DNA of 44,491 bases from Chiloscyllium plagiosum (lineage: Eukaryota). Positions 1-38,016 of this stretch are shown piece after piece. The notes below the pieces were generated by a model. That model was given only the letters and a program-made list of their open reading frames with translations, ran no database searches and was not told the DNA's origin. The position numbers and the translations under genes were made by a program. Within the stretch, counting starts at the first letter, position 1. Every line of letters starts with the position of its first letter. The stretch covers positions 3,916,832 to 3,961,322 of the forward strand of contig NC_057759.1 of NCBI RefSeq assembly GCF_004010195.1, given 5' to 3'.

Positions 1-2675
1 TGAATAAATGAGAAAGCTCTACTCATTGAATTAACACAAGCAGTTTGTTTCATTGAATGAATGTGTTAATCTCGACACTTAGATTGAATGAGAGAAGCGA
101 TAAGCATTGAATTAATATTTGCAGTCATTTCCATTGAATGAACGCGTTCAGTTTGTTTCACTGAATGAATGCGTTAAGTTCATTGCACTGAATGAATCAG
201 AGGCTCTCTTCTCATTCTATTAACATGTGCAGTAGCTTATTTACGGTAAGGTCGAGAAAAAGAAAAAAAAATGAGAGTGGCTCTACTCATTCAATGAACA
301 CGTACATTCTGTTTCATTAAAGGAATGTGCACACTTTGTTTCATGGAAAGAATGCGTTAATCTCGTGGCATTGAAAGAATCAGAAAAGCTCTACTCATTG
401 AATTAACACGAGCACTCTGTTTTATTAAATGAATGAATTAAGTTTGATGCATTGAATTTGTGAGAGAATCTCTACTCATTGAAGTAACACTGCATTCTAT
501 TTTATAGAATCAGGTCTTCATTGAATGAATGAATGCAATTGTATTCATAAAGAAAATGTGTTAATTTCGTTTCATTTATCGATGAAAAACTTTAGATACA
601 AAGAACCAATGATTGAAGTTTGATTCTTTCAATGCCACGAGATTAACGCATTCATTCAATGAAACAAACTGTGCACATTCCTTTAATGAAAAAAATGTAC
701 GTTAATTGAATGAGTAGAGACACTCACATTATTTTCATTTTCTCGAACTTAACGCAAATGAAGCCACTGCACATGCGAAAAGAATGAGTAGATAGCGTCA
801 CATTCATTCAGTGCAATTAGCTTAACTCATTCTATCAGTGAAACAAACTGCATTCCTTCCTTTATTCATTCAAAGAATCGAACATTATTCATTGATTCAA
901 TGAAAAGAACTTAACATCTCTATTTCATTCAATGTTTCAACCTTTACTCCTTCATTCGATGAAGCAAACTGTACGTTATATTTCAATGAGCAGAGATTCT
1001 TCCATTCACAGAATGCAAGGAGCATAGCACAGAATTAATGAACAAACTGCTCGCATTCATTCAATGTAACAGATTGCCCGTGTTTAATCAACGAGTAGAA
1101 ACTTCTCTCATTCATTCAAATTCATTCAACAAAACAAACTGCATGTGTTAATTCATTCAATGCCACGAAGTTTCTACATTGACTCAATGAAACAAACCGC
1201 ACACAATCATTCAATGACACAGACTGCACGTGTAAATTCACTGAGTAGAGCTTTCCTCAATTATTCATTGTCTTAAGCTTATCGAAATCATGCAATGAAA
1301 CAAACTGCATTCTTTCATTCCTTGAATCAAACTTCAATCATTGAAGTATCTGAGGTTTTTCCTCGATGAATGAAATGAACTTTACACATTTACTTTATGA
1401 ATCCAATTGCATTCATACATTCAATGAAGTCCTTGATTCTATAAGATAGACTGCAGTGTTACTTCAAGGAGTAGAGCTTCTCTCACAAATTCAATGTGTC
1501 AAGTTTTATTGATTCATTTAATGATGCAAAGTGCTTCAATTAATGAGCTTAACGCATTCATTCAATGAAACAAATTCCACACATTCATTCAATGAAATAT
1601 ATTGCACGTGTTCATTCAATGAGTAGAACATCTCTCTTTCATTCAATATATCAAACTTATCTCATTCATTCGATGAAGCAAACTGTACGTTTTATTTCAA
1701 TGAGCAGAGTTTCTTCCATTTATACAATGCAACGAGCATAACACATAGAATTAATGAAACAAACTGCACGCATTCATTCAATGAAAGAGGTTGCCCGTGT
1801 TTAATCAAACAGCAGAAACCTCCCTCATTCTTTCAAATTCATTCAGCAAAACAAACTGCATGTGTTAATTCATTCCATGCCACGAGGTTTATACATTGAT
1901 TCAATGAAACAAACCGCACGCAATCATTCAATGACACAGACTGCACGTGTAAATTCACTGAGTAGAGCTTTCCTCAATTATTCAATGTCTTCAGCTTATC
2001 GAAATCATGCAATGAAACAAACTGCATTCTTTCATTCCTTGAATCAAACTACAATCATTGGTTCAATGTATCTAAAGTTTTTCATCGATCAATGAAACGA
2101 ACTTAACACATTTACTTTATGAATCCAATTGCATTCATTCATTCAATGAAGACCTTGATTCAATAAAATAGACTGCAGTGTTACTGAGTAGAGCTTCTCT
2201 CATAAATTCAACGCATCAAACTTAATTCATTCATTCAATGAACAGAGTGCTCGTGTTAATTCAATGAGTAGAGCTTTTCTGATCTTTCAATGCCACGAGA
2301 TTAACGCATCCATTCAATGAAACAAACTGTGCACATTCCCTTAATGAAACAGAATGTACATGTTAATTGAATGAGTAGAGACACTCACATTTTTTTCATT
2401 ATCTCGAATTTAACGCAAACGAAGCTACTGCGCATGCTAAAAGAATGAGTAGAGAGCCTCTCATTCAGTGCAATGAGCTTAACGCATTCATTCAGTCAAA
2501 CAAACTGCGTTCGTTCAACTGAAATGACTGCAAATATTAATTCAATGCTTATAGCTTCTCTCATTTATTCAATGTGTCAATATTAACACATTCATTCAAT
2601 GAAACAGACTGCTTGTGTTGATTCAATGAGTGGAGTTTTCTCATTTATTCAATGTCTCGAGCTTAACGCTTTCAT
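1..2675. repeat. AT-rich satellite-like array built on a CATTCATTCAATGAAACAAACTG-type motif, with higher-order units and an internal inversion
   Basis: The motif recurs throughout. ~951-1545 repeats at ~1666-2260 (offset ~717). 1-626 is the reverse complement of ~2041-2651. Confidence 0.9.
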
Positions 2676-2797
2676 TAAATTTGCCCGTAGTGTTTGTGGC
2701 AGGGGTAATTGTAGGGAAATGGGTCTGGGTGGGTGCGCTTCGGATGGTCAGCTGTGGACTTGTCGGGCTGAAGGACTGTTTCCACACCAAGTAATTT
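2675..2797 (+). mobile_element. HE1-type SINE, 3' fragment
   Basis: GGGAAATGGGTCTGGGTGGGTGCGCTTCGG...GGGCTGAAGGACTGTTTCCACAC matches the 3' half of the SINE at 31991-32313. Confidence 0.8.
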
Positions 2798-10339: not shown

Positions 10340-10459
10340 GATGCCAAGACTGACCCTGATGATTATTGTATCACATACGCCACACTGAACCTCAGTGGAC
10401 ACTCGCAAGAAGAAAACGGAGCAGATGGGAACATTTACGCGAATATTCCACGCAACTAA
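10340..10459 (+). CDS. Terminal coding exon of an ITIM-bearing (inhibitory-type) receptor: DAKTDPDDYCITYATLNLSGHSQEENGADGNIYANIPRN*
   Basis: Acceptor ...ATCATTCAACTGCAG (phase 0) and an open frame to TAA at 10457-10459. Canonical ITIM ITYATL plus a C-terminal NIYANI tyrosine motif. Confidence 0.8.
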   Translation, partial: DAKTDPDDYCITYATLNLSGHSQEENGADGNIYANIPRN

Positions 10460-14912: not shown

Positions 14913-16730
14913 CAGGCTGCCAGAGGTAGTGGTGGAAGCGAGTGCAGTTTTGTCATTTCAGAAACATTTAAGCATGTACATGAAAGGGATAGGTTTGGAA
15001 GAATATAGACCAAACACAAGTTCATGGGACTAGTTCAAAATGTGAAAACTGGGCACCACTGACAATTTGGCCCAGAGGAACTGTTTCCATGTTGTAAAAA
15101 TATCTGACACTATGTCTCTAACCTCTCACATACTCATAATCTGTCTCTGTCTCTGTCACTCACACAGACACACACAGACACACACACAGTCACTTTCTGA
15201 CACACGCACACACACACACTCTGCTTCACACACACGCTCTCAACCAAAAACACACTCTGTCTCACGCAAACTCTCTCTCACACACACAGTCTCACATCCC
15301 TCCCTCCCTCACACACAGACAATCTGTCTCACACATACATTCTCTCAAACAAACGCACACTCTGTCTCACACACACTCCCCCTCTCTCTCTCTCTCTCTC
15401 ACACACACACGTTCTATCTCAACTAAACACACACATTCTGTCTTACACATAATCTCTCCCTCTCTCACACACACACATTGTGTCACACATTCTCTCTCTC
15501 ACGCACACAGTATCACACTCTCTCACACAAACACACTCTGTCCCACACACACTCTTTCTCACACACAGACTCTGTCTCTGTCTCTCTCATACACACTTGT
15601 TCCTCTTTCACACACGTTTACACCGAAACTTACTCTCATCAACTCTCTATCACTTTTTGTCTCACATACACTCTCACAGACACAGTTTATCCCCTCATCC
15701 CGAATTGCCCCAGCGGCAGGGAGTTGCATAAGTCTGCAGCACAGAAAAAGGCACATCGGCCCATCGCGTCTGCGTGTCAATAGTTACCACTTAACTATTG
15801 TCTAATCCCATTTCCCCAGCATTTGGTTCATTGCCTTGGCATCATTAGTGAACATATACATCCTTGTTCAATGTGATCAGGGTTTCTTCATGGTGAGAGG
15901 GGAGAGATAAGAAAGAGTCCAGTGTCCGAATTCTTTCCAACAGAGGGCAGTGAGTGTCAGGAACAGGCTGCCAGAGGTAGTGGTGGAAGCGAGTGCAGTT
16001 TTGTCATTTCAGAAACATTTAAGCCTGTACATGAAAGGGATAGGTTTGGAAGAATATAGACCAAACACAAGTTCATGGGACTAGTTGAAATTGTGAAAAC
16101 TGGACACGACTGACAATTTGGCCCAGAGGAACTGTTTCCATGTTGTAAAAATATCTGACACTATGTCTCTAACCTCTCACATACTCATAATCTATCTCTG
16201 TCTCTGTCTCTGTCACTCACACAGACACACACAGTCACTTTCTGACACACGTGCACACACACACTCTGCTTCACACACACGCTCTCAACCAAAAACACAC
16301 TCTGTCTCACGCAAACTCTCTCTCTCTCACACACACAGTCTCACATCCCTTCCTCCCTCACACACAGACACTCTATCTCACACATACATTCTCTCAAACA
16401 AACGCACACTTTGTCTCACGCACACACCCTCTCTCTCTCTCACATACACACACACACGCTCTGTCTCAACTAAACACACACATTCTGTCTCACACATAAT
16501 CTCTCCCTCTCTCTCACACACACACATTGTGTCACACATTCTCTCTCTCACGCACACAGTGTCACACTCTCCCACACACACTCTGTCTCGCACACACTCT
16601 TTCCCATACACACTCTGTCTCTGTCTCTCTCATTCACACTTGTTCCTGTCTCCCACACGTTTACACCCAAACTTACTCTCATCAACTCTCTATCTCTTTT
16701 TGTCTCACATACACTCTCACAGACACAGTC
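14913..16730 (+). repeat. Direct duplication, offset 1051 bp (CR1 3' end plus CA/CT tract)
   Basis: CAGGCTGCCAGAGGTAGTGG at 14913 and 15964; identical ORF starts at 15067 and 16118. Confidence 0.9.
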
Positions 16731-18520
16731 TGTCTCACTCACACACTCACACAGTCACACACTGTGTCTCACATGCTCTCTCTCATACACACCTAATCCC
16801 TCTCTCACACACACTTAACATACACACATACATTCTCTCACACACATACTCTCTCACAAAGAATTCCGTTCACACAATGTCTCAAACACACTCTGTCACT
16901 CTGTCTCACACATAAAGTGTCACTGACACGCACACTATCTCACTCACTCTCTCTCTCACAGACACACATACACGCACACACACACAGTCTGTCACACACA
17001 CGCTGTTATATACACTCTCTCATACAAGCACACTGTCACACACGCTATCCTTCACATATAGACTGTTTCTCTCTCACACACACTTTTTCCTCTCTCCCAC
17101 ACTTTCCACTCATCCTGACACGCATACTTACTCTCATTAACTCTATTTTTATTTGTTTCACGCACACTCTCTCACAGACACACTCTGTCTCTCACACACA
17201 CCCAAACACACACTGTGTCTCACACACTCTCTCACACACGTAGTCTCTCTCTCTCTAAAACATGCACACACATTCACACATACACTCTCTCACACAGACT
17301 CTCTCTCTGACACACACATTCTCTCACAAACAATCCCGTTCACACAATGTCTCAACCACACTCTCATACATACATTCTCACACATAAATCTCTCACACAC
17401 CCACAATGTCTCTCTCACACACATACACAGTGTCACACACACAGTCTCTCTCTCTCTCATACATACACTCTCTCACACAGTCTCACACACACGCACTCTC
17501 TCTCGCACACATACTCACTCACAAACAATCCGGTTCTCACAATGTCTCAAACACACTCTCTCACACACAAAGTCTCTCAGATAAGTATCACACCCACCTA
17601 CAATGTCTCTCAATCTCTCTCGCTCTCACACACACACGTACACAGTGTCGCACATAATCTCTCTCTCAGACACATACACATAGTGTCACACACATATTGT
17701 CTCACACGCACACTTTGTCTCATACACTCTGTCACACCCACAAGCACACAGTATGTCACACAGACTCTCTCTCTCACACACGGTCTCTCTGACACACGTA
17801 CACACACATACTCTCTCACACATGGTTTCTCTCTCTCTGTCACACACTCATATATACACACACTATCTTTCTTTCGCTCTCACACACACACAGTCTATCT
17901 CACACAAACATACACTCTCTCACACACAGTCTCACACACACGCTCTCTTTCTCTCACACACAAGCTCTCACAAGCAATCCCGTTCTCACAATGTTTCAAA
18001 CACACTCTCACTCTCACACACATACATACACAGAGACTGTCACACACACAGTGTCACACATACTTTCTCTCTCAGACACAAAGACACACACAGTCACGCA
18101 CACATACTCTCGCACGCTCTCTCTCACACACGTTTCTCTCTCTCTGTCATGCTCACACGCTCACACATACATTTCTCTCTCTCTTTCACACACACACTCT
18201 GGCACACAAACTTTCTTCTCAGCCACACTCTCCTTCTCACCCTCACACACATACACACACGCACACTTACTCTTATCAAATTTCGCTCTCTTTCTGTCTC
18301 AGGCATACGCTCTCACACAGACACACTCTGTCTCTCTCTCTCTCTCACACACTCTGTCTCACAGACTCTCTCATATACACATTCTGTAGCATGCACACTT
18401 ACTCACACACATTCTGTCCCTCATGCACACTCACACCCACCCACACACAGACGCTCTCTCAGAAGTCTGTGCTCTTTCTCACTTTACTCCACACTTCCTC
18501 ACGCACCCTCTCTCACAGAG
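15120..18520. repeat. Long compound (CA)/(CT) microsatellite, interrupted at ~15690-16170
   Basis: Imperfect CACACA/CTCTCT mosaic, source of the His/Thr/Ser/Leu pseudo-ORFs. Confidence 0.95.
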
Positions 18521-24606: not shown

Positions 24607-25446
24607 AACCTTGCATAAATAAAACTAACATTCTTTACAGACTGTTGTTTCTTGCAAACATAACATGTGTCCATTCTAATTGCCCAGAGGGACAGTTAGG
24701 ATGAACATATATTATTTGGGTTTGGAGACACAGCTCGGCTGCACCAGATTAAGTCCTTCCCCTAAAATATAATAATAATCCAAGGCAATGGGCTGAGAAG
24801 TGCGGCAGCTGTAAATTAATAACAGTATTAGGCTGTACAGATTCAGTGGGCCGAAGGGCCTCTCACACCACATATAATTGGATGACAAGCTTTGGAGTTT
24901 CCTGAATGTGTATGGGGGAGAGAGAAGGAGGAGCTTGGGAGAAGGTACTGGTGATTAACAACTAGCAGAAAGTGCACTTTGTAACCAATCTTCTGAAGAA
25001 ATATTAGAAATAGCAAGTGAATCGATAACCTTGCATAAATAAAACTAACATTCTTTACAGACTGTTGTTTCTTGCAAACATAACATGTGTCCATTCTAAT
25101 TGCCCAGAGGGACAGTTAGGATGAACATATATTATTTGGGTTTGGAGACACAGCTCGGCTGCACCAGATTAAGTCCTTCCCCTAAAATATAATAATAATC
25201 CAAGGCAATGGGCTGAGAAGTGCGGCAGCTGTAAATTAATAACAGTATTAGGCTGTACAGATTCAGTGGGCCGAAGGGCCTCTCACACCACATATAATTG
25301 GATGACAAGCTTTGGAGTTTCCTGAATGTGTATGGGGGAGAGAGAAGGAGGAGCTTGGGAGAAGGTACTGGTGATTAACAACTAGCAGAAAGTGCACTTT
25401 GTAACCAATCTTCTGAAGAAACATTAGAAATAGCAAGTGAATCGAT
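24607..25446 (+). repeat. Near-perfect 420-bp tandem duplication
   Basis: 24607-25026 equals 25027-25446, with one difference noticed (T25002 vs C25422). Confidence 0.95.
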
Positions 25447-27384
25447 TCCCTCTTCGAGGTTTATACCCCTGTTGAGGAGACGTGAACAGATCCTTTCGCT
25501 CCCCTGCGGAAAGTTTAACAAAAGAGCATTTTATTGCCATAATAACATGGAATGCATGGCAAAATGTTAGCTTATGGGCATCCTGCAAACATTATGAAAG
25601 TATCTGCTGAACGGAGCCCAGGTTATGGGTCCCTGCACACACATAGAGAATGTTCTGTAGTTATATCATAGATTGGCTTGAAATGAAAGACAAATAAACA
25701 AGCAGCAAATAAGCAAATTCAGTGTAGAGCTAATTATTTTGTGGAAGGAGTCTCATGAATACTCATGAGAATGTAAGTCCATTAGATATAGTAGCCTTTT
25801 AAATCATTCTGCCATTCAATCGGAGCTGATTGAGTTTGACAAACCTTTCTCGTGCCAACTCCTCATAACTCATGATCCCCTGATCAATCGAGAACCTCAC
25901 TATCTCTGTCTTAAAAAAACATTCACTGACTTGGTCTCCGCAGTCCTCTGCAGCAATGTGTTCCCCAGACTCACCCCTCGCTCGGGCTGACGAAATTCCC
26001 CTTCATCTCAGTTTTCAAGTGTTATCCCTTCCCTTCACTTTGAAGCCCGTAAAAACAGAGAATGTACCTGTTAGTGAATGGGTAAATGGACAGTCAAGAG
26101 TAAGGTAGGTATTGGGGTGTTTGATAAAGATAGCAGATATTCAAATAAATTGATAACTGGGGCCATCCACTTCAGGAATTTGACAGCATGCATTGCAAAC
26201 TAAATAATATTCCTGCTTTATTTCAGCTTCCATGAGATCGTTATTTACTCACGAGATTTAAAAAAGTCTGATAAGTGACGATCTCACCATTTCCCCTTAA
26301 CATTCTGTGAATGTTACCAGTGATGATTATTCCACTATCCAAAGTACGGGGATACCTTTAACTGGAATCTGAACACGAGCAGCCATATGGTGTACAACTT
26401 TGATCCCCTTACTTGGTGAAAGATGTGAATGGATCAACATTTGGCAGACAGGGTTTGATGTGGCTAAGTGTGACGTTGGAATTTTTTTAAAAAGTGCCAT
26501 TCTCTAAATTGAGAGAATCTGCACAGTGCAGAGGGATCTGTGTTACCTTATGCACGTTATCACAGAAAATGAGCGCATAGGATGTGTGTGCCTCTAACTG
26601 CCCAGTATTGTTGCCCATTCATTGTTGCCTTTGAACTGATTGGCTTGCTAAACCATTTCACAAGGTAATTCAGAGTCAACCTTACTGTAGGTCTGGAGCC
26701 ACATGCAGGCGAGAACAGATAAGAATGGCAGATTGAAGGGAATGAATGAAGCAGATATCTTTTTCCAATGATAGCGGTTTCAATTTTTTATTCCAGATTT
26801 TCTTATCATATTTAATTCAAATTCTACCATTTTCTGACGTGGTATTTTAACCCAGGTTCCCCGGAGTATTAGCTGAGTAGTTAGATTAATAATTCTAGCA
26901 AAAACACCACTATCTCCTTGTGCACATTAGTTAGCAATTCGATGTTAATTTGACCATGCAATTGTCTTTGAGAGAGAAAGTATAGGGCTATGTTTCCATC
27001 TGCCCAGTTGCTGAAATGCATAACATATTTTCATCTGTTTTTGAGGATTTCTTGCATTTGCCCTGATAAAATATTTGGGCACCGCAGTCCATTGTGTAAC
27101 AATATTCAACCATGTGGTGACATTCTGGTGAGCTCATCATTGAAGGAAGTGCGAACAAACATTGAATTTATTGATCGAGGAATGAGGAATCAAAGGTTTA
27201 CATAGACTTAGCTAACTGAAAATAATTGAGTAGAAAATGGATTAAAGGAGAAAATATATCACAATCTCTAGAATTTACACAATTTCCAATTGCAACTGTA
27301 ACACTCGTAAATTCAATAGGACAAAAAAAAAAGCTTATTATTTGATGTTATAGTTGATAATGCTACCTTTAGAGTACTATAGAT

Positions 27385-27790: not shown

Positions 27791-28090
27791 ATGGGGCTGC
27801 TGTCTTGCTGGAGGGAGAGGGAGGGGTCGGAGTTGGATTTTTATCTGAGGGTCACTACACATCAGGCACAGGATGAGCAGGAGAAGGGGAGTCGTTCATG
27901 GTAACATCAGCCAGTGTCAGGAGCGAACCTATGTATTTGCATCATTCCGTATTAACAAACTGTCTGCCCAGCTAACTGCCCGCCAGTGTAATGTGGAACT
28001 TGCCAAGGCAGAAAATGGAAACAAGTGTAAGGGAACATCGAGGATTTAGAGCCAAAGCAATAATGGCCATTTTACTTGTCAGTATCAAAC

Positions 28091-28186
28091 CGTTTGTAAA
28101 ATGTTCGACAATGATGACCACCATCATAATGAGCACGAAGACACTGAGGCAGAGATGCACCAAAGTCACAGCAGTATGGTCTCGTT
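28091..28186 (-). CDS. Transmembrane exon of an LRC/FcR-like activating-type receptor: (E)RDHTAVTLVHLCLSVFVLIMMVVIIVEHFTN
   Basis: Acceptor TTTTTCTCCTTGTGCAG (phase 1). The DHT..xLxH-hydrophobic-EH pattern parallels NKp46 [27 protein letters not shown]. The 3' boundary is uncertain (donor after 28091 or 28076, or read-through to the stop at 27972). Confidence 0.72.
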
Positions 28187-28449
28187 CTGCACAAGGAGAA
28201 AAACCCAGTTTAGATCGCTTAGTGTTGGGGAACTGACCAGATTGACAGAAATGATTGAAGAGCAGAGAAGCACCGAACTCCTCATTGAATATCCAAATAA
28301 CCTTGGAACGGTTACAATGAAAGCCAACGAGTTCGGATCAGAAGGGAGGAGTAAGAGTGTAACTGTGTTGTCCACAAAAGCAAAGGAAGGGAGGGTTAGA
28401 ATTTGCCTGAATTGGTCAATGGAAGGGATTTCCAGAAACCAGATGCATA

Positions 28450-29460
28450 CAAAAAAACAAGAGGCCCTTCAGCCCATCAAACTTGTACTACAGAAACGTA
28501 CACTCCTGCCCAAATATCCACTGTAGGCCCATTTCCTTGAAAGTGAAGAAACCTCAAGTGGATATTTGTGTACTTCTTCAAGATAGTGAGGTTCCCTGCA
28601 TCCCAGGCAGTGCATTTCAGACATTACTGTGCTCTGGGTGATAAATAGATCCTTAAATGCCTTCTAAGGCGCCAGTCTTTCACATTAAGTTGATACCACC
28701 CCTTGTTTTTGGCCCTTCGATTCAGGGGAACAGCTACTTCCTATCCCCATATCCATGCCCCTCAATATTACACATCTTTACCAAACCTCCACTTTTTCAG
28801 TTCCAAAGAAAACATCTTGCTGAATCTCCTCTGTAAACCGACCGCTACCCACCCCCCAACCAAAGTAACCACATTTTTCCTACAGTGCGGAGACTGGATC
28901 TGTACGCAGTGGCAGTTGAGGTCACTTTTTTATCGCTGGATTGTAGGAGCTTTAGGGGTGATCTTATGCAGGTTTACAGAATCATGAGGGGCATATATAA
29001 GGTGCATTGGCAAGGTCCTTCCCTCAGTAGAATGTGAGGACTGCCGATGATGGAGGTCAGAGTCAAAAAGTGTGGAAAAGCACAGCAGCTCAGGCCGTAT
29101 CCGAGGTCCAGGAAAGCGGAATCTCAAACTAGAGGGGATAGGTTTAAGGTGAGGGGAAAATACTTAAAAGGCAATTGTTTCTCATTGAGGGTGATGTGTT
29201 TATATAGAATGAGCTGCAGTTTAAGTGGTAAAGGTGGGTACAATTATAACATTTAAAAGATCTTGATCGATACATGCTGAAAATGTGTTGCTGGAAAAGC
29301 GCAGCAGGTCGGGCAGCATCCAAGGAGCAGGAGAATCGACGTTTTGGGCATGAGCCCTTCTTCAGGAAAGGGCTCGATACATGGCTAGGAAACGTTAAAA
29401 GGGCATGGGGACCAAATGCAGGTAAATGAGATTGGGTCAGTTTGGGATGGCTGGCCAGTG
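28450..29460. mobile_element. Nested CR1 fragments (both strands) with PLE insertions
   Basis: CR1 3' motifs GGTGATCTTAT..AGGTTTACAGAATCATGAGGGGCAT and AGAGGGGATAGGTTTAAGGTGAG interrupted by pLTR-like pieces. Confidence 0.7.
29277..29373 (-). mobile_element. 97-bp PLE-derived insertion with 10-bp TSD and mutated hammerhead
   Basis: TSD TCGATACATG (29267-29276 and 29374-29383); CUGAAGA-A-GGGC(UCAU)GCCC-AAAA-CGUC at 29334-29369. Confidence 0.8.
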
Positions 29461-31063: not shown

Positions 31064-31339
31064 AGGATATTCTCACAAGAATGCTATTACTGTAGGGTGT
31101 TTTATGGGTCGATGTGGAAGTTTAGCATCTGTACTCCCCATCATCCTCCTGTCTATCAGCCTCTATGATGTAAGTCTTCCCTTTGAACTCTTCGATCATG
31201 TTGTTTACGATCCAGTTATAGTTCGTCGCACGTACCTCCCGACCGGCATCGCAGCTAAGAGTGATCCGGTCGCCCATGAACAATCTGTCCCACATTGACT
31301 CCATCGTTAGTACGGGTAATCCAGTCTCCACTGAGGAAC
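31064..31339 (-). pseudogene. C2-type Ig-domain exon of an Fc receptor-like (D1-type) protein with one in-frame stop
   Basis: GSSVETGLPVLTMESMWDRLFMGDRITLSC..NYNW..DDGEYRC*TSTSTHKTPYSNSILVRIS. Cys pair with 41 residues between, conserved W and DxGxYxC. Phase-1 acceptors (exon start 31339 or 31330) and phase-1 donor T|GTGAGG. TAA at 31124-31122. Confidence 0.82.
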
Positions 31340-34639: not shown

Positions 34640-35850
34640 GAATCATAAAACTAATACAGCACAGAGGGGGCTATTCGGCCCATCTTGTTCATGCCAACCC
34701 AAAGACCCCCAGAGGCCCTTTCTCATCCTATCTTCTTGCATCAGCCCGTAGCCTTGCAGTTAATGGAACTGGAGGTGCAGTTCCAGGGATTTTTGTTTAA
34801 AAGAGTTTAGGGTCTCTGCCTGTGCCACCAAATCAGGCAGCGAATTCCACATACCCACCACTCTATGATAAAAAACATTTTCCTCACATACACCACTTTG
34901 TTTGAATCAATGATCCCTGGTGTTTGAACTCTCTGCCAAAGGAAACAGGTTCCTCCTGTGAACGATATTCTCTCCCTATTTCGTGAAAAATCACACAACA
35001 CCAGGTTATAGTTCAACAGGTTTATTTGGAAGCACGAGCTTTCGGAGTTCTTCTCCTTCATTAGTAGCTCACTATTTAATATTCCTTAATCATGTCACCT
35101 CTGTTCCAAAGACTATAACCCCAATCTCTCCAATCCCTCCCGATAGCTACAATTCACCAGCCCTGGCAACATTCCAGTAAATCTCTTCTGCACTCTCTCC
35201 AGAGCTATGACATCCTTCCTGTGATGTAGTGACTTGACTGGAACAATACTCCGGTTGTAGCCTGAACAGTGCTGCCTTGTACGGTTTCATTGTTATATCC
35301 CTACTTTTGTATTTCATCCCTCTGCCCGTGAAGGAGAGCATTTCATGTGCCTTCTTTACAACCCCATCTACCTTTAGGGACTTTACAACCCCATCTACAC
35401 TTGCACACCAAGATCTCTCACTTACCCTGCTCCCTCAGCAGATTCCCATTTATTTTCTATTCCCATTTACTGTTTGACTTCCCAAAATGCATTCCCACAC
35501 ACGTTATCAGAGCTGAACTCCATCTGCCACTTTCCTGCCCACTCCACCAAACCATCTGTAATAATTTTGGAGCTTACAGCTATCCTCTACACTATCCATT
35601 AAATGGCCAATTTTTGTGTCATCTGCAAATTTCACAAACCTGCCCACCACATTCAAGTCCAAATCCTTAAAGTATAAAACAAACAGGAGAGGTCCCAACA
35701 CTGAGCCATGCAGAGCACCACTTGAAACAACGTTCCATTCACAAGAGTAGCCATCAACCATTACCATTTGTTTCCTCTTACTAAGCCAACTTTGCATCCA
35801 ATTCAACACATTACCCTGTAACCCACAGCTTTTACTTTGTGAACCAGTCT
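34640..35850 (-). mobile_element. CR1 LINE RT region with nested PLE fragment (~34983-35065)
   Basis: SWLSKRKQMVMV..GSVLGPLLFVLY..KFADDTKIG. Confidence 0.9.
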
Positions 35851-35853
35851 GAT

Positions 35854-37556
35854 GTGATATTGTTGCTCCTTTAACAAGCCTGTAAAATACACAGGCTCTG
35901 AAAAGTCTGACTTGATGGGTTTTAGGGACATTTTAATTATAGCTCATAGATAATGCCTCAGGCAAAAGGCTTCCACATTTTTCAAAAGAACACTTGTACA
36001 ATGAAAGCGGAGTGTCCCAGTTTTCCCAGCTCAGCTTTTCTCTGGTTTGATTTAGTTTTTGGCTGTCTGGCTAATGACTGAAAGTAGTCAGGCAGTTGAA
36101 AAAGCTGCTGAACCCAAAGAAGCCAGTCTATGCTGGAACTCTCTCTCTCTAACATCCCTGCTTTAAGACCCTGTGTTTGATTTTATCTTTTTGTGCCAAA
36201 GGGTGTTTGTGGGAACTATTGCAAGCGTTGGGAACAGCATCATTAAGTTGGTATAATCTGTAGGCTTTTCGGATAGGTAAAGTTATTTAGTATCCTGTTC
36301 TCTTTTAAGGCATTTGTTTCATTTGATAATCTTGTAAATCAGTTCTGTTTTGTTTAAAACTACGTGGGTGGACCAGCTACATCATTCCTGGAATATCCGA
36401 GTACACCTGCCTAAACCAACTAGCAAAGTTAGGATCCTGGCTACTTGAAATGTTTTGAGGGGGTCTGTAGTTCTGATTTGGGATTAGGGTTGTTGAACTT
36501 GAAGGCAGCGAGTGGTAAGTGTTAGTGTCTTTTGTTCCGGGTTTTGAATTCAGTTGGTTTAAACAGTGCTTGGGATAGCAATGGCTCTTTCAGTCATCAA
36601 GAGTTTTCTGTGGATGGAAGAAGTGATTTTGGGCCTCTTACAAAAGGTGATTAAGGGTAAGCTGCTGGAAATAGCAGACAAGCTGGAATTGAGTCTGTGT
36701 CCTTTCATGTGGAAAGGAGAGATAATTACAGCAGGAGCTCAGCATTTCCATTTGTTGGAAACACCATCAGAATCTTCTGAGATGGCTGACATTCAATCGA
36801 AAATGCAGCAACATGAGTTAGAAGCACAAGACAAGGAAAGGGCAACAGAAATGACATCTTTTGAAATATGATTAAATGGAGAAGAGAGAGCGGGGAGAAA
36901 GAGAAAAGAAAGGAAGGAAGATATGGAGTTTGAACTTTGGAAATTGGCACTTAGACAGGAGTTCAAAAATTCACTTCCTGAAGCAGTGAAAACCTATGTG
37001 GAAGATCAGAGAGTTAAAACAGCAAGATTGGCATCTGAAACGCCTGATGGTTATGAGTTGTTCGAAGTTTTGGCTTCTAAAACCAATTTCAATCCATGAG
37101 AGATAGAAGTTGAAGATAAGAGAAATCCTCACCTGGAAAGGAAACGATAGATCTCAGTGAATGTCGTAAGAATGACTTATCACAAGTTAAAAAGGAAACA
37201 CTTGAAGGGGAAAGAGAAGTTAAAAAGCTCTGGTGTTTTCCCTGCAATAAAGTAGGCTATGCGAAATCACAGTGTTGGTGGGTTCGGAAAAACACTGGGA
37301 AACCAGATATAGGAAACAGGATAAGCCAGTGAAATTTGTTGAGGTGGTAACTGAAAGTACAATGGAGGCTCGAAAGCTGCACCAGAATGTACAAGCTGAT
37401 CCGAGGTGACAGATCTTGTCAAACCATCCACCTCTGAAGGTAATGTTTACCTGCATAGGAGGATCAGGTAAAGTGGTTACAATATTAAGAGATACAATCT
37501 GTGATGCTGAAAGATGAGGAGATATGCACCTCTGAAGGACTATTGCCAGAAAAGTC
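35854..37556 (+). mobile_element. Gypsy (Gmr1-like) LTR retrotransposon relic: putative 5' LTR, gag, protease start
   Basis: Gag start MALSVIKSFL (36581); SCAN-like EFKNSLPEAVKTYVEDQRVKTA (36959); zinc knuckle CFPCNKVGYAKSQC (37234); VTILRDT protease motif. LTR limits are approximate. Confidence 0.8.
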
Positions 37557-37903
37557 AATCAATCAATAGAAAGCAGGAGACAACAGCTTCGCTTCACTTG
37601 GAAGTTGCCACTGATGATGTTACCTAGCCAGGTTTTGAAACGACTAGATATCAAACCTACAGCTCAGCAAGCGAACATACACCATAACCCCCCCTATCCC
37701 CCTGCTTGTGCCAGTTTCTAGACTATTGCCAGAAAAGTCAATCAATCAATAGAAAGCAGGAGACAACAGCTTCGCTTCACTTGGAAGTTGCCACTGATGA
37801 TGTTACCTAGCTAGGTTTTGAAACGACTAGATATCAAACCTACAGCTCAGCAAGCGAACATACACCCTAACCCCCCCTATCCCCCTGCTTGTGCCAGTTT
37901 CTA
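37538..37903 (+). repeat. 183-bp tandem duplication carrying a third PLE-type pLTR with degenerate hammerhead
   Basis: GACTATTGCCAGAAAAGTCAATC at 37538 and 37721; CCA-CTGATGA-..ACCT(AGCC)AGGT..GAAACG at 37608 and 37791. Confidence 0.9.
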
Positions 37904-38016
37904 GCTAATCAATAGTTGTATAATATCCTAACAATTTATTGCTTTGGAAGTGACTCATTATTTCATTCTGTAACTGCCAGTTTATTGTTTCTAATCTTGT
38001 ATTTACTCAGTTTCAG

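What the first reader, a model, noticed from the sequence alone, without database searches (positions are those of the whole stretch)
28091..28186. LRC-type TM exon with the NxxR adaptor motif changed to TxxH
Seen: RDHTAVTLVHLCLSVFVLIMMVVIIVEHF. Known: NKp46, LILRA, OSCAR, GPVI and FcalphaRI use a D(Y/H)TxxNxxR juxtamembrane/TM motif whose Arg pairs with FcRgamma/CD3zeta. Here Thr (ACT, 28166-28164) and His (CAT, 28157-28155) are each one substitution from Asn (AAT) and Arg (CGT, a CpG transition). Inference: this is either decay of an activating receptor or a His-based adaptor-binding variant. It suggests the NxxR module predates the bony/cartilaginous fish split.
Basis: partly seen in the sequence, partly recalled or inferred. 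Interest (0 to 1): 0.75.

Follow-up and report, generated by a model that had tools for sequence, protein, structure and literature searches.

The report
Histidine-type receptor membrane anchor in sharks
A likely broken shark immune-receptor gene carries a real membrane-anchor exon with histidine where land vertebrates have arginine, and the same histidine stands in all six related carpet-shark gene models found, so sharks likely have their own version of the anchor that would dock a signalling partner, an anchor so far described in the papers read only from amphibians, birds and mammals.

Summary
The exon is real (28186-28076, minus strand, AG/GT, phase 1). Its histidine is not private decay. 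A search of 1.84 billion proteins gave two hits (E 5e-7), and follow-up gave six gene models in four carpet-shark species. His stands at the Arg position in 7 of 7 sequences, Arg in none. The Asn position holds N in 2, T in 4, M in 1; whale shark reads DHTAVNLVH. The cassette follows FCRL-type and OSCAR/LRC-like ectodomains, two families that carry NxxR in Xenopus. A review reports that human CD89 Arg-to-His still assembles with FcRgamma. So this is likely a His variant of the NxxR adaptor-docking helix. Binding and homology to tetrapod TMs were not tested residue by residue, and shark FcRgamma was not confirmed. This copy is likely dead: its only Ig exon (FCRL D1, 31339-31064) has an in-frame TAA, the direct D1-TM junction makes TAA, no D2-D4 or leader exon was found, and a newly found tail exon (25503) is frameshifted. 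RNA gave 0 reads, a weak test. All homologues come from one shark order. The scan had not noted this on other DNA.

The parts
28076..28186 (-). TM exon (111 nt, phase 1-1): xRDHTAVTLVHLCLSVFVLIMMVVIIVEHFTNGLILT; acceptor AG 28188-28187, donor GT 28075-28074
   Evidence: homologues
28155..28157 (-). His codon CAT at the position of the NxxR arginine; His in 7 of 7 aligned TMs
28164..28166 (-). Thr codon ACT at the Asn position; N in 2, T in 4, M in 1 of 7
31064..31339 (-). FCRL-type D1 Ig exon (276 nt, phase 1-1), 72-73% identical to D1 of intact bamboo/epaulette-shark FCRL-like models; upstream intron also homologous, so a genomic duplicate
31122..31124 (-). in-frame TAA just after the second Cys; Gln in 8 of 8 homologous D1 rows
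25424..25503 (-). cytoplasmic-tail exon (acceptor TTTCCGCAG at 25505-25504). Starts ERKDL like P0015; an inferred 13-nt loss shifts the frame, so the homologous end (SVHVSSTGV, stop 25463-25461) is out of frame and the in-frame stop is 25426-25424

Best explanation
The 111-nt exon at 28186-28076 encodes a membrane helix that carpet sharks share among Fc-receptor-like and OSCAR/LRC-like receptors, in which a conserved histidine likely takes the place of the NxxR arginine and would pair with the acidic residues of an FcRgamma or CD3zeta dimer; the copy in this window is likely a pseudogene. Shown: the exon, its splice sites, the homologues, His in 7 of 7, the two ectodomain types, and the stop codons. 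Inferred: descent from the same ancestor as the tetrapod NxxR helix, adaptor binding, the 13-nt loss in the tail exon, and the copy being dead. Mechanism of intact members: ligand binding by the Ig domains; His near the top of the helix (helix 238-266, His245, in the P0018 model) pairs with the adaptor's Asp pair; the adaptor's ITAMs signal. The short tail has no tyrosine motif in P0015 or P0018 and ends in TTG(V/L). Neighbouring FCRL-type genes with a neutral TM and ITIM-like tails (P0002, P0003, P0007, P0022) would be the inhibitory partners.
For: (1) phmmer of the 34-aa TM against 1,835,955,588 proteins gave exactly 2 hits, P0014 (whale shark, E 5.1e-7) and P0015 (C. punctatum, 6.0e-7), both with His. 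(2) A profile search returned 10 proteins; 5 carry this TM, all with His; the other 5 have a neutral TM or none. With P0017 and the window: His 7 of 7, Arg 0 of 7; D 7 of 7; DHT 5 of 7; Glu at His+17 in 6 of 7 (P0020 leaves the frame first); N at -3 in 2 of 7. Isoforms P0016 and P0025 were left out as duplicates. (3) These match the features PMC6557307 lists for the class: DYT at the N-terminus, NxxR, acid at the C-end. (4) The ectodomain families match those named in Xenopus. P0014 is 62% identical to P0002 D3-D4, whose best PDB match is FCRL5 at 1.5e-37. P0015 matched 21 PDB sequences, all LRC. The P0018 model's top Foldseek hit is OSCAR, 8e-13. Xenopus FCRL, SLAM and LRC receptors share the NxxR TM. 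(5) Between the two LRC-like lineages the TM is 71-83% identical and the ectodomains 35-39%, which points to constraint or exon sharing. [quoted passage not shown] (7) Pseudogene: TAA at 31124-31122; D1|TM junction codon TAA; tail frameshift; no further Ig exon by tblastn, Pfam (1 of 119 ORFs) or HMM; no leader exon found.
Against: No tetrapod NxxR TM reached E 0.001, and the TM profile found nothing in the PDB at E 10. Within orthologous LRC-like pairs the TM is not more conserved than the ectodomain (62% vs 70-71%). Asn is replaced in 5 of 7. Shark models have a separate tail exon, whereas Xenopus TM1 genes encode TM and tail in one exon. FcRgamma was reported absent from sharks; only cd247 is confirmed in bamboo shark. 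The profile of the LRC-like set ranks FCRL5 first, then 17 LRC and 2 further FcR-family entries among 20. P0019 has two TMs and P0020 a frameshift, so 2 of 6 models are suspect. All searches were seeded with the His form, and at least two further genomic copies in this species were seen without their codons. All homologues are Orectolobiformes.
Confidence: 0.6

Rival explanations
1. The TM and tail exons here belong to a working gene whose ectodomain exons lie beyond the window, or join through an unseen mini-exon; the stopped D1 is an unrelated fragment in an intron.
For: The TM exon itself is open with good splice sites. It is about equally close to FCRL-linked P0014 (27/36) and to LRC-linked models (26/36; 22/25 to P0020), and its tail start matches LRC-linked P0015. 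LRC-like models have short stalk segments before the TM. A changed tail may be tolerated.
Against: No LRC-like Ig exon lies in the 16 kb upstream. The tail exon is frameshifted and loses the TTG(V/L) end kept in 3 of 3 models with this tail type. 0 RNA reads lay on the TM exon in X21, but only about 2% of the run was read and the D1 region drew about one paralogue read, so this test is weak.
Confidence: 0.17
2. The His cassette descends from or resembles NxxR but no longer docks FcRgamma/CD3zeta; it acts through another partner or through the conserved C-terminal TTG(V/L), a class I PDZ-binding-type end (consensus recalled).
For: His is mostly neutral at pH 7 (general knowledge); Asn is lost in 5 of 7; FcRgamma was reported absent in sharks; the TTG(V/L) end is kept in P0015, P0018 and P0019.
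Against: His is invariant while its neighbours at -3 and +2 vary; CD89 tolerates Arg-to-His; CD3zeta is present in bamboo shark.
Confidence: 0.13
3. The shark helix arose independently of the tetrapod NxxR helix, and the likeness is convergence.
For: No statistical hit to tetrapod TMs; different exon layout; no member found outside carpet sharks.
Against: Four positional features co-occur (DHT, N, basic residue, C-end acid), and the cassette sits on two of the ectodomain families that use NxxR in Xenopus.
Confidence: 0.07
4. One reading: Thr and His are recent neutral changes from Asn and Arg in this dead copy.
For: Each is one substitution from AAT/CGT, and the copy carries other lesions.
Against: His is in 6 of 6 homologous models and Thr in 3 of them, in other genes and species.
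Confidence: 0.03

Closest known systems
NxxR-type TM of activating LRC receptors (LILRA, NCR1/NKp46, FcalphaRI/CD89, GPVI, OSCAR, TARM1, IGSF1; PMC6557307)
   Same: D-aromatic-T start (DHT in 5 of 7), Asn three residues before a basic residue (2 of 7), basic residue near the top of the helix, Glu at the C-end, short tail; P0018 ectodomain closest to OSCAR by sequence and fold.
   Different: His, never Arg; Asn mostly Thr; separate tail exon ending TTG(V/L); adaptor binding untested; LRC synteny untested.
Xenopus XFL (FCRL) receptors with TM1 (PMC2413239)
   Same: FCRL-type ectodomains occur with either a charged TM and short tail or a neutral TM and tyrosine-motif tail; the same TM type is shared with an LRC-like family.
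   Different: TM1 has Arg, and TM plus tail lie in one exon; XFL2 dependence on FcRgamma is shown by experiment.
RefSeq models XP_048476977 (LOC125488132, Rhincodon typus), XP_072405153 (Chiloscyllium punctatum), XP_043541774 (LOC122547209, C. plagiosum), XP_059497408 and XP_059498368 (Stegostoma tigrinum), XP_048476646 (R. typus)
   Same: Same TM exon, 26-27 of 36 residues identical (P0020: 22 of the first 25), His invariant.
   Different: They are automatic models, five named 'uncharacterized' and one 'IGSF1-like'; the window copy has a stopped D1, no other Ig exon and a shifted tail.
Human CD89 Arg-to-His mutant (as reviewed in PMC13107469)
   Same: His in place of the adaptor-pairing Arg; CD89 reads QNLIR, whale shark VNLVH.
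   Different: An engineered mutant in a human receptor; the shark His is natural and lineage-wide. The primary papers were not read.

Membership tests
NxxR-type TM | Arg near the N-terminal end of the TM | tested here: not met
   His in 7 of 7, Arg in 0 of 7
NxxR-type TM | Asn three residues before the basic residue | tested here: inconclusive
   Not met in the window (Thr); met in 2 of 6 homologues. PMC6557307 writes 'Asp at -2', which I read as a slip for Asn at -3; taken literally it is not met
NxxR-type TM | DYT-like motif at the N-terminus | tested here: met
   DHT in the window and 4 of 6 homologues, D in all; feature; the spacing to N is recalled
NxxR-type TM | Acidic residue at the C-end of the TM | tested here: met
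   Glu at His+17 in 6 of 7
NxxR-type TM | Short tail, encoded in the TM exon | tested here: not met
   The tail is short but has its own exon at 25503; Xenopus rule
NxxR-type TM | Association with FcRgamma or CD3zeta | not testable with these tools
NxxR-type TM | Clusters with tetrapod NxxR TMs in a tree or profile | tested here: inconclusive
   No hits; a short hydrophobic query has little power; no tetrapod TM sequences were on hand
FCRL/FcR family (window Ig exon) | FcR-type Ig domains | tested here: met
   72-73% to D1 of P0002/3/7; P0002 best matches FCRL5, FCRL4, FcgammaRIII, FcepsilonRIalpha
FCRL/FcR family (window Ig exon) | Intact reading frame with leader, Ig and TM exons | tested here: not met
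   TAA in D1, TAA at the direct junction, no leader or D2-D4 found
FCRL/FcR family (window Ig exon) | Synteny with SLAM/CD2 genes | not testable with these tools
   No whole genome held
LRC family (relatives P0015, P0017, P0018) | LRC-type C2 Ig domains | tested here: inconclusive
   21 of 21 PDB hits LRC; 18 of 26; OSCAR top by fold; but the profile ranks FCRL5 first and the Atlas ranks HIDE1 first; no domain tree was built
LRC family (relatives P0015, P0017, P0018) | Linkage to TTYH1/RPS9/LENG8 | not testable with these tools
   No genomic context for the protein hits

The most novel reading that the evidence does not exclude
Sharks have a working paired-receptor system in which one exon-shuffled NxxH/TxxH helix couples both FCRL-type and OSCAR/LRC-type ectodomains to a zeta/gamma adaptor. 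The LRC activating module, and its sharing between FcR and LRC families, then goes back to the jawed-vertebrate ancestor, and sharks run it on a titratable histidine, which could make docking pH-sensitive.
Probability: 0.45. Interest if true: 0.72.

Novelty: new variant of a known kind. Interest (0 to 1): 0.55.

Why it matters
[quoted passage not shown] PMC6557307 calls the origin of the LRC unclear and traces the NxxR helix only to amphibians and birds. A shark version on both ectodomain types would move the module to the base of jawed vertebrates. It would also give a natural Arg-to-His experiment, testable by ordinary co-expression. Limits: FCRL-named genes are already in shark annotations and in a single-cell study, and I recall, without having retrieved it, a 2021 Immunogenetics paper (Wang, Belosevic, Stafford) reporting fcrl genes and an LRC-like gene in elephant shark. 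The new part is the His helix. The window copy itself is likely dead.

Tried and rejected
No whole genome was held, so paralogues could not be counted. A word-based search with the TM alone found no candidate; HMMER did. Run search: no RNA holder listed. Read laying at 80% likeness: X22 laid nothing. X21 (about 2% read) gave 0 depth over 27868-28893 and about one read on D1 with 21 other differences; no joint was listed at the acceptor. DNA contigs from two studies show further copies of the TM region (27880-28456 with 65 other letters in both; 27949-28286 with 51). Repeats filled the tables and the letters at the N/T, His and TAA codons were among 688 rows not shown. One contig spans D1 with 2 differences at unlisted places, so the TAA is not confirmed in a second animal. 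The TM profile found nothing in the PDB. P0020 gave only 2 weak non-LRC PDB hits. The Atlas search on the TM part gave a feature score of 0.79 and structure scores under the bar, a lead only. Supplements of PMC6557307 and PMC2413239 held none of the motifs searched; their alignment figures are not held and may bear on spacing. The PMC11372145 supplement (cut when stored) does not list LOC122547209; all 7 FcRgamma-description rows were in the tongue-sole sheet, and of 16 'fcer1g' rows I saw the first two (zebrafish) by that term; absence from a marker list shows nothing. Rejected: the 70-residue read-through with a second hydrophobic stretch, since homologues splice at 28075; the donor at 28090; a retrocopy origin of D1, since the upstream intron is homologous. 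Literature searches finding no shark NxxR/NxxH description: (open-licence library only; most subscription journals missing).

Full report
OBSERVATION. The sequence is as described. On the minus strand a pyrimidine tract ends in AG at 28188-28187, and a phase-1 exon reads xRDHTAVTLVHLCLSVFVLIMMVVIIVEHFTNGLILT up to the donor A|GTAAAA at 28075. Thr is ACT (28166-28164) and His is CAT (28157-28155). It is the most hydrophobic 19-mer in the six frames. Motif plus hydrophobic run arose in 0 of 150 simulated windows. The best proof that it is an exon is homology, below.

ORGANISM. All protein hits are carpet sharks. Earlier scan notes call this genome a bamboo shark; I did not test that beyond the homologies. 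No whole genome was held.

THE LOCUS. Three minus-strand exons were found. (a) An Ig exon, 31339-31064, is 72-73% identical to domain 1 of annotated FCRL-like genes of Hemiscyllium and Chiloscyllium. One of these, P0002, best matches human FCRL5 in the PDB (E 1.5e-37); these genes have a neutral TM and ITIM-like tails. The window exon has TAA at 31124-31122, where 8 of 8 homologous rows have Gln. It ends in T|GT, so splicing straight to the TM exon gives T+AA, a second stop. (b) The TM exon. (c) A tail exon starting at 25503. It begins ERKDL like P0015 and holds SVHVSSTGV-stop one frame off. Against P0015 this implies a 13-nt loss at a repeated TCTG (inferred from protein length). No other Ig exon was found: 1 of 119 Cys-containing ORFs matched Pfam Ig, and tblastn and HMMs of both ectodomain families found only D1. 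No leader exon was found. The copy is therefore likely a remnant. Whether D1 and the TM ever belonged to one gene is open: whale-shark P0014 joins FCRL D4 to this TM, but the window's tail start resembles the LRC-linked P0015.

IS THE HISTIDINE DECAY? No. phmmer with the 34-residue TM against 1,835,955,588 proteins gave 2 hits: P0014, whale shark LOC125488132, and P0015, C. punctatum. A profile search returned 10 proteins. Five carry this TM (P0014, P0015, P0018, P0019, P0020); P0004, P0007 and P0022 have the neutral TM; P0021 and P0023 have none. With P0017 (cluster mate of P0015) and the window, the alignment has 7 rows; isoforms P0016 and P0025 were left out. His 7 of 7, Arg 0 of 7; at -3, Asn 2, Thr 4, Met 1; DHT 5 of 7; Glu at His+17 in 6 of 7. 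Fourteen of 37 columns are invariant, so invariance alone is not striking. Caveats: the searches were seeded with the His form; clusters can hide Arg members; P0019 has two TMs and may be a chimeric model; P0020 leaves the frame after the TM core. DNA contigs from two studies show at least two more copies of this region in the window's species, whose codons I could not see.

WHAT IT IS ATTACHED TO. Two families. P0014 is FCRL-type (62% to P0002 D3-D4). P0015, P0017 and P0018 have two Ig domains whose PDB matches are LRC receptors: 21 of 21 for P0015 and 18 of 26 for P0018, OSCAR first. An AlphaFold model of P0018 (pLDDT 74.9; helix 238-266 with His245 near its top) has OSCAR as top fold match, E 8e-13. 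Against this, a profile of the set ranks FCRL5 first, the Atlas ranks HIDE1 first and FcalphaR second, and P0020 alone gives no LRC hit. Between the two LRC-like lineages the TM is 71-83% identical while ectodomains are 35-39%; within one orthologous group it is 62% against 70-71%. This is the Xenopus pattern, where the NxxR exon serves FCRL, SLAM and LRC genes.

MECHANISM. In CD89 an Arg near the top of the helix pairs with both Asp residues of the FcRgamma dimer. [quoted passage not shown] I infer that intact shark members dock a zeta/gamma dimer through His and signal through its ITAMs, as activating partners of the ITIM-bearing FCRL-like genes. This was not tested. CD3zeta is expressed in bamboo-shark T cells. 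FcRgamma was reported absent from sharks, and one search for it found no paper, so the partner may be zeta. The three models with this tail type end TTG(V/L), a PDZ-binding-type end by recalled consensus; the window copy loses it.

EXPRESSION. Not shown. X21 gave 0 depth on the TM exon, but only about 2% of the run was read and even paralogous D1 transcripts gave about one read; X22 laid nothing. Alternative isoforms in the whale- and zebra-shark models usually imply transcript support (my knowledge of the annotation pipeline, not checked).

COMPARISON WITH WHAT IS KNOWN. It likely works like an NxxR-type TM but fails membership on the defining Arg and on the one-exon TM-plus-tail layout; it meets the DYT-like start and the C-end acid. 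Homology to tetrapod TMs is argued from positions and partners, not from a significant alignment. A search for 'NxxR' listed 15 papers, 3 on these receptors; 'shark' does not occur in the main text of those three. Nine further searches found no description of a shark His form. The library lacks most subscription journals. I recall a 2021 Immunogenetics paper reporting fcrl and LRC-like genes in elephant shark; it was not held and may discuss TMs.

PAPERS SEEN. PMC2413239: passages, section 6, supplement searched. PMC6557307: passages, sections 3 and 13, supplement searched; Fig. 1 not held. PMC4016189: passages, section 13. PMC13337447 and PMC4536121: passages. PMC13107469: passages, section 13. 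PMC11372145: passages, supplements searched (one cut). Morton 1995 and Bakema 2006: reference lines only. Others: search listings only.

VERDICT. A real exon in a likely dead gene copy, which exposes a lineage-wide His variant of the NxxR adaptor-docking helix in carpet sharks. New variant of a known kind. Confidence in the best explanation 0.6; interest 0.55. The scan's index held no look-alike finding.

Noticed in passing
window 10341-10459 (+): Last exon of a convergent inhibitory receptor: acceptor CTGCAG, then an ITIM-like ITYATL and a second tyrosine motif NIYANI before TAA. No upstream exon of it was recognised in the window, and it matched no Pfam family and none of the shark proteins used in tblastn.
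   Followed up: partly
P0008 (XP_043539666, C. plagiosum): A RefSeq model named 'histone H4-like' fuses a D1 piece 77% identical to the window's D1 to histone H4, leaving D1 just before the second Cys; likely a chimeric model over another broken D1 copy.
   Followed up: no
P0019/P0025 (Stegostoma LOC132207175): Model with an LRC-like ectodomain, a neutral TM and then the His TM, which is 97% identical to the whale-shark FCRL-linked one; either a read-through or alternative TM exons. Its contig has the same length (15,641,076) as that of FCRL-type P0022/P0023, so the two families are likely on one scaffold there.
   Followed up: no
window 24607-25446: Near-perfect 420-bp tandem duplication (99.8%) that overlaps the last 23 nt of the tail exon's shifted frame; a recent duplication or an assembly artefact. 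A similar 183-bp pair lies at 37538-37904.
   Followed up: no
window 1-2680 and 14913-18400: A 27-bp minisatellite in direct and inverted blocks, and a long CA/CT-rich tract with a 780-bp duplication at 92.6%.
   Followed up: no
window 35510-35932 (-) and 36563-37329 (+): Reverse-transcriptase remnant (Pfam RVT_1, E 8e-4) and a nearby broken frame with a zinc-knuckle-like Cys pattern; likely decayed retroelements.
   Followed up: no
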